Shown here piece by piece: positions 1 to 14,944 of a DNA stretch of 64,000 bases. A model generated the notes under the pieces. The model had not been told where the DNA came from, searched no databases, and saw nothing but the letters and a program-made list of their open reading frames with translations. Both the position numbers and the translations under genes were made by a program. This DNA is from Promethearchaeota archaeon (GTDB lineage Archaea > Asgardarchaeota > Lokiarchaeia > Sigyniarchaeales > SOKP01), in contig JBHLOY010000008.1 of assembly GCA_048939995.1 (NCBI GenBank), positions 64,001-128,000 on the forward strand. Direction: 5' to 3'. The stretch's first letter is position 1, and each line of letters starts with the position of its first letter.

Positions 1-526
1 AGAGTGTACCACTTTGAGAGGCTATAGAAAATTTACTCCTTTTTAGATTTTCCCAAATAAAAATATTGAATGATTTATTTTCTTCTTCTGGTCCATACCA
101 ATTATTAAAAACACCTAAACAATTTGGACCAATAAATCTAATTCCATATTCTTTTGCAATATTATTTATTTCTTGAGTAAGTGTATTTTTGCGTTCTCCA
201 ACTAATTCACGAAAACCACTTGAAATTAAAATTATTCTTTTAACGCCTTTTTCAGCACACTCTTTAAAAATTTGGGGGACAATTTTAGCAGGAAGAACAA
301 TAACTACTAACTCAGGAATGTCTGGAACATCATATATAGATTTATAGGCTTTGTATCCCATGACGGACTCCAAATTTAAGTGGATTGGAAAAACCTTACC
401 CTCATAACCAGACATTATCAAATTCATAATCTGGACAGAACCTAATGAAGTACCATCATTATTTGCTCCATAAAATGCAATAGTCTTTGGATTTAAAAAG
501 CCATGAAGGAAGTGATTTTCACTCAT
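1..526 (-). CDS. Acyl-CoA synthetase/acetate-CoA ligase (ADP-forming), N-terminal CoA-binding part; runs off the window edge
   Basis: Manual translation from ATG at 526: MSENHFLHGFLNPKTIAFYGAN...PELVVIVLP...IILISSGFRE...IRFIGPNCLG...IASQSGTL, typical ACD alpha-subunit motifs. Absent from the ORF track because it is truncated. Confidence 0.9.
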   Translation of the reverse strand, partial: MSENHFLHGFLNPKTIAFYGANNDGTSLGSVQIMNLIMSGYEGKVFPIHLNLESVMGYKAYKSIYDVPDIPELVVIVLPAKIVPQIFKECAEKGVKRIILISSGFRELVGERKNTLTQEINNIAKEYGIRFIGPNCLGVFNNWYGPEEENKSFNIFIWENLKRSKFSIASQSGTL

Positions 527-595: not shown

Positions 596-1817
596 ATGAC
601 TAAATTATTCGATGGTTTAAGAATATTAGATTGTTCTCAGTTTATCTCTGGACCATGGACTAGCACATTTTTTGCAGATCAAGGAGCGGAAGTTATTAAG
701 GTAGAATTTTATCTCGTGCATAGCGATTAAACTACATCCTCCACCTTTCGGTGAAGCTTTTCGCTTATTTGTCCTCTATGATAAAACTATATTTCCTTTA
801 TTTTCGATCTTAAATCGTGGTAAAAAATCAGTCTCTCTAGATTTAAGAAAACCCGAAGCACAAGGTATTTTTAAAAATTTAGTTAAGAAGTCTGATATAT
901 TAATCGAGAATTTTGTTAAAGGAACAATGGAAAAATGGGGATTGGGTTATGAGATACTCAAAGAGATTAATCCCCAGCTGATTTATGCAAAAATTTCAGG
1001 TTTTGGGAACAAGGGTTTAGAACGATATACAAATAAGACCGCTTTTGATATAATCATTCAAGGTCAAGCAGGAATCCTAGATGCATTAGGGTTTAGTAAG
1101 GGTCCACCGAGATTACCCATAGCAGATTATACTGCTGGGCATATTGCTGCAATAGGGATAAGTCAAGCTCTCTTTTACCGAGAAAAAACGGGAGAGGGTC
1201 AATTTATTGACATTTCAATGCATGATATAATGTTTGCTATCAATATTAGAGCTCAAGCGAAGGAATTTATGCCAAGAGCACAACATATTGATGTAACTTC
1301 AAAATTTTTACCTATCTACAATCAATATCCATGTAAAGATGGTGTAATCGTTTTGACAACTCTTACAGAAAATCAATTCCAAAGACTAGCCAATGATGTT
1401 TTAAAAAAACCTGAATTGTTAGAAGATCCCAGGCTCGATAATATTATAAAACGCTTTGATCATATAGAGGAGCTAGATGAAATAATAGAAACATGGAGTA
1501 TAAATTTAACACGAGAAGAGGCAATATCGAAACTAGAATCTGTAAGAATCCCATGTGGTCAGGTATTAACCATTAATGAAGTTCACCAACATCCGAATCT
1601 TAAAGAAAGAGGAATGTTATGTGATCAATTTGATTTTTCCAAATGGGGTGTTGAAAAAGCCACCATCCCTTCTGCTTTAATAAAATTTTCTCTATGTGAG
1701 GGAAGCGTGGAAAAGATTGGTCCAGAATTTGGGGAGAATAATAAGGAAATTTATTGTACCTTACTAGGTTATAGTGAAAAAGATCTAAGAAAGTGGAAAC
1801 AAGAAAAAATAATCTAA
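596..1817 (+). CDS. Family III (CaiB/BaiF) CoA-transferase in two exons, 596-706 and 738-1817 (396 aa if spliced)
   Basis: Exon 1: MTKLFDGLRILDCSQFISGPWTSTFFADQGAEVIKVE. Exon 2: PPPFGEAFR...LNRGKKSVSLDL...DILIENF...MEKWGLGYE...PIADYTAG (catalytic Asp). The track ORF 927..1817 is only the 3' part. Confidence 0.9.
707..737 (+). other. Candidate 31-nt bulge-helix-bulge intron in an mRNA
   Basis: Helix GTAG(701-704)/CTAC(732-735), 3-nt bulges AAT(705-707) and ATC(736-738), intron stem TTTA/TAAA plus TCG/CGA. Canonical cuts restore the reading frame. Confidence 0.8.
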
Positions 1818-1906: not shown

Positions 1907-2473
1907 TTGATGAGTAAAGTGTTAATCTTATATGGAACAAGATATGGAACCACTAAAGCTATATCTAATGAAATTCAGAAAGTAATCGACGATAAGGGAA
2001 TAATTACGGAAAGTTATAATCTAGAAGAACTCAAAATAAAGGAACTCCCCCCATTGCAGGAATATACTGGCATTTTAATTGGTACAGGTATTAAAATAAA
2101 GAGATGGACTTCAGATGTTAAAAAATTTGTGCAAAAAAGAAAAACAGAACTAATTAGCAACCAAAATAAACTAGGATTCTATGTGTGCTGTGGAGAAGCC
2201 GCAAAAAAAAACAATATTAGTAATGCAATTGATACTTATATCACTTCTAAATTACAAAAATTAGGCATAAAACCCGCTTTAATCGATGCTTTCGGAGGAT
2301 GTTATGATTTAACTGAGGGATCTTCAATAACCGGTATGACACGTAAGATTGTTATAAGTATTATGAAAAATGAGGAAGGGATTGAAAATCCAGATGGTAA
2401 GTTGCATGATTTTAGAGATTGGGAACAAATCAGAGAATTTGCTAATATATTTGCCGAATTAGTAGAGAAGTAA
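1907..2473 (+). CDS. Flavodoxin-domain protein (HemG/Flavodoxin_5-like)
   Basis: LILYGTRYGTT FMN loop; C-terminal DFRDWEQIREFA motif. Confidence 0.85.
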   Translation: MMSKVLILYGTRYGTTKAISNEIQKVIDDKGIITESYNLEELKIKELPPLQEYTGILIGTGIKIKRWTSDVKKFVQKRKTELISNQNKLGFYVCCGEAAKKNNISNAIDTYITSKLQKLGIKPALIDAFGGCYDLTEGSSITGMTRKIVISIMKNEEGIENPDGKLHDFRDWEQIREFANIFAELVEK

Positions 2474-14837: not shown

Positions 14838-14944
14838 AGGCTCGTGGCGAAGCATGGATATCGCGGCAGCCTCCTAAGCTGACGGACGGGGGTTCAAACT
14901 TCTTTAACGGTTTATTGAAGGAATAAATCCCTCCGGGCCTGCCA
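14838..14944 (+). tRNA. tRNA-Arg(CCT) with 29-nt BHB intron at position 58/59 (14898-14926); CCA encoded
   Basis: Acceptor AGGCTCG/CGGGCCT plus G-CCA; anticodon arm CAGC-CT-CCT-AA-GCTG; removing the intron gives T arm GGGGG-TTCAAAT-CCCTC; T-rich tract follows. Confidence 0.93.

What the first reader, a model, noticed from the sequence alone, without database searches (positions are those of the whole stretch)
699..740. Candidate bulge-helix-bulge mRNA intron in an Asgard CoA-transferase gene
Seen: the ORF from ATG 596 encodes a clear family III CoA-transferase N-terminus up to EVIKVE(706), then FYLVHSD-stop(730). The rest of the enzyme resumes at 738 (PPPFGEAFR...) in the +1 frame. The junction folds as a BHB: 4-bp helix G701:C735, U702:A734, A703:U733, G704:C732; 3-nt bulges A705-A706-U707 and A736-U737-C738; intron stem U708-A711/U728-A731 plus UCG/CGA; exon-side pairs G700:C739 and A699:U740. 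Established: archaeal EndA cuts after the 2nd nucleotide of each bulge. Those cuts (706/707 and 737/738) remove exactly 31 nt and give GTA GAA CCT CCA = V-E-P-P, the family's conserved KVEPP motif, in a 396-aa protein with the catalytic Asp intact. The well-established archaeal mRNA intron case is crenarchaeal cbf5. Inference: this Asgard archaeon splices mRNA of a metabolic gene. Caveat: the exon-side stem is only 2 bp unless extended by pairing of 681-689 with 741-748.
Basis: partly seen in the sequence, partly recalled or inferred. Interest (0 to 1): 0.95.

Follow-up and report, generated by a model that had tools for sequence, protein, structure and literature searches.

The report
tRNA-type intron in Asgard CoA-transferase mRNA
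A metabolic enzyme gene of an Asgard (Loki-type) archaeon is broken by a conserved 31-base insert with the exact shape that the archaeal tRNA-splicing enzyme cuts, so the messenger RNA very probably has to be spliced, something the papers I could search report inside only one other archaeal coding gene (cbf5).

Summary
Observation confirmed. Removing window 707-737 restores a 396-aa family III CoA-transferase (KVE|PPP), matching intron-less orthologs. The insert is identical in four other assemblies, so it is no sequencing error. Of 61 distinct orthologous alleles (Promethearchaeota), 30 carry a 30-31-nt insert at this boundary. All 30 stop exon 1 early; 25 form a 4/4 and 5 a 3/4 BHB helix, with compensatory changes. 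Both exons stay under purifying selection. Fourteen alleles carry a second BHB intron 68 nt upstream. The genome encodes two EndA subunits (catalytic triad and CSL lysine present) and RtcB. It holds at least seven more BHB-interrupted coding genes, among them single-copy metG, EF-1alpha and dnaG. Frameshifting, ribosome hopping, a split gene and a pseudogene fit poorly. Against: no spliced RNA was found, and this allele folds no better than shuffles. Intron presence is patchy, partly through recombination of the 5' block. In print I found only cbf5 and one Haloferax 5' UTR intron. This scan noted the same phenomenon before in other Asgard genomes and genes (AI notes, not used as support).

The parts
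596..706 (+). Exon 1: codons 1-37 of a family III CoA-transferase (CaiB/BaiF), ending in KVE
   Evidence: PF02515 positions 2-33, E 3e-10; pN/pS 0.16 among intron-bearing alleles
707..737 (+). 31-nt BHB intron (intron B); shifts the frame and holds the in-frame TAA at 728-730
   Evidence: identical in four other assemblies
701..704 (+). Central helix, 5' strand GUAG (exon; Val codon plus first base of Glu codon)
   Evidence: pairs with 732-735; GTA in 28/30 intron-bearing vs 6/31 intron-less alleles
705..707 (+). 5' bulge AA^U; predicted cut 706/707
   Evidence: sequence; register test
708..731 (+). Intron hairpin: h' stem 708-711/728-731, inner stem 714-717/723-726, 5-nt loop 718-722
   Evidence: 6 of 8 pairs show two-sided changes
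732..735 (+). Central helix, 3' strand CUAC (intron)
736..738 (+). 3' bulge AU^C; predicted cut 737/738
699..740 (+). Whole h-B-H-B-h' motif; exon helix h is only G700:C739 and A699:U740
   Evidence: G:C kept in 28/28 aligned alleles, A:U in 15/28; h lost in one further lineage, L252-L257
738..1817 (+). Exon 2: residues 38-396, with the predicted catalytic Asp167 (PIADY)
   Evidence: PF02515 E 2e-76; ortholog aligned with solved family members; position
638..640 (+). Gln15 codon: empty site of a second BHB intron (intron A, 32-56 nt) that 14 orthologous alleles carry
1..526 (-). Divergently transcribed NDP-forming acyl-CoA synthetase-like gene (494 aa, runs off the window); frequent neighbour in relatives
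   Evidence: PF13380/PF02629
14839..14944 (+). tRNA-Arg(CCU) with a 29-nt BHB intron in the T-loop (14898-14926): same geometry at a non-canonical tRNA site
   Evidence: 4/4 helix; ARAGORN recognises it only after excision

Best explanation
The 31 nt are an intron removed from the pre-mRNA by the cell's tRNA-splicing machinery. The transcript folds into a bulge-helix-bulge (shown possible and conserved). The two-subunit EndA cuts after the second base of each bulge, at 706/707 and 737/738 (inferred from established EndA chemistry). RtcB joins the exons (inferred), which gives KVE|PPP and the 396-aa CoA-transferase; the unspliced message yields only a 44-aa peptide. The intron is old within this Promethearchaeota clade, since the inserts are homologous. 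It is now polymorphic through precise loss and through recombination that swaps the promoter-exon 1-intron block between alleles (inferred). It is one of at least eight such coding introns in this genome. It is most likely a tolerated passenger of a broad-specificity EndA; a regulatory role is untested.
For: Same-site insert in 30 of 61 alleles, 30 or 31 nt; all close the exon-1 frame within 7 codons. 4/4 helix in 25/30 at the EndA register versus at most 4/30 at shifts -8 to +8. 88.7% of cells paired, 7 pairs with two-sided changes, 0/500 shuffles as high, slid controls 27-55%; e.g. GUGG:CCAU in L036. Helix-forming codons AAG 30/30 and GTA 28/30 are kept although exon-1 synonymous sites are near saturation (pS 0.70); intron-less alleles have 10/31 and 6/31. 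pN/pS 0.16 (exon 1) and 0.15 (exon 2), like intron-less alleles (0.13, 0.15). A second, independent BHB intron in the same gene. EndA alpha matches Aeropyrum EndA (E 5e-37) with Tyr/His/Lys triad, Arg/Trp and the CSL lysine; a second subunit and RtcB are present (PMC3241643). Five BHB-predicted introns elsewhere in the genome were confirmed at the exact cut sites by intron-less orthologs; two more restore invariant motifs in single-copy EF-1alpha and dnaG.
Against: No spliced transcript or full-length protein from an intron-bearing allele was found. The window allele folds no better than shuffles, and its exon helix is 2 bp and absent from the MFE. Five of 30 alleles have a G-A mismatch in the helix, and one lineage lacks h, so relaxed recognition must be assumed. 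Central-helix covariation rests on few events; the covariation and paired-tree tests overstate because alleles are related and exon 1 travels with the intron.
Confidence: 0.93

Rival explanations
1. Sequencing or assembly error (one extra T), so the gene really has a 10-aa in-frame insertion.
For: The +1 frame is open across the insert in this allele; one deletion gives a 406-aa ORF.
Against: The insert is identical in four other assemblies; 21/30 relatives have a stop in the exon-2 frame inside the insert, and 8 are 30 nt with an in-frame stop.
Confidence: 0.003
2. Translational recoding: a programmed +1 frameshift, or ribosome hopping over the hairpin as in T4 gene 60.
For: Hairpin and stop codon after the take-off point; a U-run at 707-710 in this allele.
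Against: A frameshift cannot work in the 30-nt alleles or in the 21 with a stop in the exon-2 frame. The triplet before exon 2 is never GAA or GAG (15 TAA, others varied), so there is no matched landing codon. The same geometry occurs in a tRNA, which is not translated.
Confidence: 0.02
3. Pseudogene, or a split gene whose 3' part is translated alone from an internal start.
For: Databases annotate these alleles as 296-368-aa proteins; one allele (L042) has a further frameshift.
Against: Purifying selection on both exons; internal starts are scattered from residue 30 to 101 and not conserved; exon 1 holds the start of the PF02515 domain; the same kind of insert sits in the only metG, EF-1alpha and dnaG copies found.
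Confidence: 0.015
4. Removed at RNA level, but by another nuclease or with a dedicated helper that reads the conserved loop (C-NNN-UC-G), or removed at DNA level in part of the population.
For: The loop motif is in 26/30 B and 12/13 A introns and in the PAC2 and dnaG introns; EndA should not need it.
Against: The cut sites follow the EndA rule at eight different sites; the window allele lacks the motif; it is not enriched genome-wide (49 vs 45-52 in control registers); the RNA model finds no second copy in any genome.
Confidence: 0.03

Closest known systems
cbf5 pre-mRNA BHB intron of Desulfurococcales and Sulfolobales (Yokobori 2009, PMC2738675; Watanabe 2002 and Yoshinari 2006 as cited there)
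   Same: Short intron (16-44 nt there, 30-31 here) in a coding sequence; BHB junction cut after the second bulge base; hetero-oligomeric EndA; intron-less lineages exist; gene callers miss it.
   Different: Asgard lineage; metabolic gene unrelated to RNA modification; phase-0 site; two intron sites in one gene; much patchier (17-18 state changes on the exon-2 tree, at least 11 forced); one of at least eight coding introns in one genome. Splicing is shown for cbf5 and only inferred here.
HVO_1309 5' UTR BHB intron of Haloferax volcanii (Schwarz 2020, PMC7714728)
   Same: EndA substrate in an mRNA, 46 nt.
   Different: Lies in the untranslated leader and does not break the reading frame; alpha2 EndA needing a strict motif.
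Non-canonical tRNA introns of Asgard archaea (bioRxiv 10.64898/2026.10.13.758758)
   Same: Same motif and size class; repeated gain; two-subunit EndA background; this window holds such a T-loop intron.
   Different: That study covers tRNA genes only (no occurrence of 'mRNA' or 'cbf5' in its text).
HAC1/XBP1 unconventional mRNA splicing (own knowledge; IRE1 with RtcB or Trl1)
   Same: Short frame-shifting intron cut by a protein nuclease and sealed by a tRNA ligase.
   Different: IRE1 cuts in two separate stem-loops, not a BHB, and is stress-regulated; no regulation is shown here.

Membership tests
Archaeal BHB intron (EndA/RtcB) | 4-bp central helix with two 3-nt bulges on opposite strands | tested here: met
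   (25/30 with 4/4, 30/30 with at least 3/4)
Archaeal BHB intron (EndA/RtcB) | At least one flanking helix (h or h') | tested here: met
   h' 4 bp and h 2 bp in the window allele
Archaeal BHB intron (EndA/RtcB) | Cuts after the second base of each bulge restore the functional RNA | tested here: met
   gives the 396-aa protein of intron-less orthologs; other registers lack the helix
Archaeal BHB intron (EndA/RtcB) | Structure kept by selection (covariation) | tested here: met
   strong in the intron stem, few events in the central helix; relatedness inflates the test
Archaeal BHB intron (EndA/RtcB) | Host encodes EndA and RtcB | tested here: met
   residues per PMC3241643
Archaeal BHB intron (EndA/RtcB) | Spliced RNA or circular intron detected in vivo | tested here: inconclusive
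   no spliced form among homologs and cluster members; no RNA library could be queried directly
Archaeal BHB intron (EndA/RtcB) | Cleavage by EndA in vitro | not testable with these tools
   needs experiment
Family III CoA-transferase (PF02515) | Domain spans both exons; catalytic Asp present | tested here: met
   the catalytic role of Asp167 is inferred from alignment; substrate unknown
Group I/II self-splicing intron | Large ribozyme core | tested here: not met
   31 nt; no relevant Rfam match
Spliceosomal intron | GU...AG ends | tested here: not met
   ends are UU...AU here and vary among alleles
Translational bypass or programmed frameshift | Matched take-off and landing codons, or an open shifted frame | tested here: not met
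Multi-copy mobile mini-element | Further copies elsewhere in the genome | tested here: not met
   RNA model gives one hit in each of 7 of 42 genomes, each in this gene; the model includes exon bases, so it is biased to this site

The most novel reading that the evidence does not exclude
This Lokiarchaeia lineage splices messenger RNA routinely with its tRNA endonuclease and ligase: many genes (at least eight here, including essential ones), sometimes two introns per gene, with new introns arising from a common hairpin (the A and B introns share a C-NNN-UC-G loop) and moving among alleles by recombination. That would be a spliceosome-free, multi-gene pre-mRNA splicing layer in the closest prokaryotic relatives of eukaryotes.
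Probability: 0.8. Interest if true: 0.92.

Novelty: new variant of a known kind. Interest (0 to 1): 0.86.

Why it matters
Pre-mRNA splicing inside archaeal coding sequences is documented, in the papers I could search, for one gene (cbf5). A conserved case in an Asgard metabolic gene, with a second intron site and with sister introns in metG, EF-1alpha and dnaG, suggests that Asgard archaea already tolerated coding introns and tied translation to RNA processing. That bears on the origin of eukaryotic gene structure and of HAC1/XBP1-type splicing. It also has a practical effect: intron-bearing alleles sit in databases as N-terminally truncated proteins, so Asgard proteomes and pathway reconstructions are mis-called. 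The patchwork of intron-plus and intron-minus alleles makes intron gain and loss directly testable.

Tried and rejected
Looked for spliced RNA through full-length proteins identical to intron-bearing alleles: none. The closest full-length hit checked (P0134, L244) has the last 66 nt of exon 1 identical to the intron-less genome L030, so it is an intron-less DNA allele; two other look-ups returned no DNA. The de novo genome scan was not enriched over shifted-register controls (17 vs 13-19; 188 vs 180-206), so I picked candidates by eye and accepted only those checked further; one fetched candidate (L112) was not tested. Two scan scripts timed out. A motif-free census with neighbouring genes of relatives (about 117 genes hit) recovered five of the six introns then known (not PAC2) and no new one, so the rate per gene is low. 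The paired-tree test for intron A codons was not significant (p 0.45). Folding energy against shuffles gave no support. Rfam and sigma-70 scans gave nothing relevant. A homing endonuclease beside the gene was considered: upstream neighbours vary and only one lineage has a weak LAGLIDADG hit, so rejected as a general cause. Cultured-type complete genomes among the relatives hold only distant paralogs. Rows left out of the tree: L042, L057, L101, L103 (broken or cut short).

Full report
Observation. ATG 596 opens a 37-codon N-terminus of a family III CoA-transferase (PF02515). Read on, it ends at TAA 728-730. The rest of the enzyme starts at 738 in the +1 frame. All stated pairs are present. Excising 707-737 gives 396 aa with KVE|PPP. 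The insert is identical in three Logan assemblies and one more NCBI MAG of the same organism, so the T3/T4 error is excluded. The proposed exon-stem extension is not the predicted fold, and the element is no more stable than shuffled sequence. The case therefore rests on comparison, not on energy.

Relatives. Orthologs at 69-87% identity come mostly from records titled Promethearchaeota, some under other Asgard names. Of 61 distinct alleles, 30 carry an insert of 31 nt (22) or 30 nt (8) at the same codon boundary and 31 have none. The intron-less alleles fix the boundary without any appeal to RNA shape. All 30 inserts close the exon-1 frame within 7 codons, and 21 also have a stop in the exon-2 frame. 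At the EndA register the central helix is 4/4 in 25 alleles and 3/4 in five; at sixteen shifted registers 4/4 occurs at most four times. At random positions the window's full geometry arises in 0.008%. On an alignment of 28 alleles, 88.7% of cells pair and 7 of 14 pairs show two-sided changes; no shuffle of 500 reaches this and slid controls pair 27-55%. Most covariation is in the intron stem; in the central helix it is one A-U to G-C change (L036) plus one-sided changes. Relatedness inflates such tests.

Selection. Pooled pN/pS among intron-bearing alleles is 0.16 in exon 1 and 0.15 in exon 2, against 0.13 and 0.15 in intron-less alleles, so both exons are still translated. The codons that build the helix are constrained where the intron is present: AAG 30/30 and GTA 28/30 versus 10/31 and 6/31, although exon-1 synonymous sites among these alleles are near saturation (pS 0.70). 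Independent pairs on the tree agree (about 9 of 11 one way, none the other; median p 0.004), but that test is weakened because exon 1 and the intron travel together. One further lineage has AAA and no exon helix (L252-L257), which implies relaxed recognition.

Second intron. Fourteen alleles carry another insert of 32-56 nt inside the Gln15 codon, with its own BHB (GCUC paired with G(A/G)G(U/C); 11 of 13 scored are 4/4) and a C-G to U-A change in L010. Twelve carry both introns, two only this one. Both intron families share a five-base loop C-NNN-UC-G (26/30 and 12/13), which hints at a common origin; the window allele has lost it.

History. On an exon-2 tree the intron changes state 17-18 times, at least 11 forced by well-supported branches, and the outgroups lack it. 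The inserts are homologous, so one gain with many losses or swaps is simplest (inference). Recombination is visible. The window's exon 1 is 89-90% identical to L020 and L025, whose exon 2 is about 77-84% identical, but 72-77% to its intron-less exon-2 neighbours L002 and L074. L244 (no intron) and L245 (intron) differ at 17 of 1000 bases in exon 2 but at 13 of the last 66 bases of exon 1.

Machinery. The genome has two EndA paralogs and RtcB. The alpha subunit best matches Aeropyrum pernix EndA (E 5e-37) and keeps the Tyr/His/Lys triad, the Arg and Trp, and the lysine of the Crenarchaea-specific loop, which PMC3241643 ties to broad substrate range. ARAGORN calls most of the genome's tRNAs only with inserts, and the window holds a tRNA-Arg(CCU) with a 29-nt BHB intron in its T-loop.

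Other coding introns in this genome. A de novo BHB scan was noisy, with no excess over control registers. Five candidates picked by eye were all confirmed at the exact predicted cut sites by intron-less orthologs: metG (C6, 32 nt; also in two relatives), fwdA-like (C17, 30 nt; one), an AIR-synthase-like gene (C23, 30 nt; four), a MoxR-like ATPase (C7, 30 nt; one) and a PAC2 gene (C7, 29 nt; none). Leads from earlier notes gave dnaG (34 nt) and EF-1alpha (33 nt, in the P-loop Lys codon); both have 4/4 helices and restore invariant motifs, but I did not check their orthologs. For metG, dnaG and EF-1alpha no second close copy was found in the assembly, so the cell must remove these inserts somehow. 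About 110 unselected neighbouring genes showed no further insert, so the share of genes affected is small.

Mechanism and rivals. Best reading (0.93): EndA cuts the BHB at 706/707 and 737/738, RtcB ligates, and the spliced mRNA makes the enzyme. The fold, the conservation and the enzymes are shown; cutting and ligation are inferred. Error is excluded. Frameshifting fails for 30-nt alleles and for those with a stop before exon 2. Hopping lacks a matched landing codon. A split gene or pseudogene conflicts with selection and with scattered internal starts. I found no spliced RNA. The enzyme's substrate is unknown; the divergent acyl-CoA synthetase neighbour points to acyl-CoA metabolism.

What is known. 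cbf5 is the one coding case; Yokobori 2009 says no other was confirmed, though some were predicted (PMC2738675). Schwarz 2020 adds a 5' UTR intron and repeats that cbf5 is the only other example (PMC7714728). A 2026 preprint treats Asgard tRNA introns only. Eight literature searches found no report of Asgard coding introns; the library lacks most subscription papers. This scan has noted the same phenomenon in other Asgard genomes and genes; those are AI notes and were used as leads only.

Verdict. A real, conserved feature that works like the cbf5 intron and meets every membership feature testable here. It differs in lineage, gene class, number of introns per gene and per genome, and allele turnover. 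New variant of a known kind; interest 0.86.

Noticed in passing
L004, L005, L007, L009, L010, L017, L018, L029, L037, L042, L080, L081, L085, L101 (site equals window 638-640): Second BHB intron (32-56 nt) in the Gln15 codon of the same gene; the 56-nt version in L101 may hold a nested insert.
   Followed up: partly
G000 C6:82172-82203 (+): 32-nt BHB intron just before the HIGH-like motif of the only metG found; also in G019 and G010.
   Followed up: yes
G000 C17:377423-377452 (-); C23:175418-175447 (-); C7:20329-20358 (+); C7:27864-27892 (+): 29-30-nt BHB introns in fwdA-like, AIR-synthase-like, MoxR-like and PAC2 genes, confirmed against intron-less orthologs.
   Followed up: yes
G000 C11:167313-167345 (-) and C11:487217-487250 (-): 33-nt BHB intron in the EF-1alpha P-loop and 34-nt BHB intron in dnaG; motifs restored, orthologs not checked.
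   Followed up: partly
window 14839-14944: tRNA-Arg(CCU) with a 29-nt T-loop BHB intron (14898-14926), missed by ARAGORN.
   Followed up: yes
L206 (G007 C2, MoxR-like gene): Besides the shared intron, a second in-frame insert of about 10 codons with a TAA lies further downstream; probably another intron.
   Followed up: no
window 596-737 vs L020, L025, L002, L074; L244 vs L245: The exon 1-intron block and exon 2 have different nearest relatives, a sign of intragenic recombination.
   Followed up: partly
L246-L247, upstream of the gene: A 571-aa gene with a weak LAGLIDADG hit lies directly upstream in one lineage; the upstream neighbourhood is very variable.
   Followed up: partly
L042, exon 2 near its codon 75-80: Extra frameshift in an allele carrying both introns: assembly error or decay.
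   Followed up: no
window 1907-2473: Flavodoxin-like gene (PF12724) follows the CoA-transferase on the same strand.
   Followed up: no
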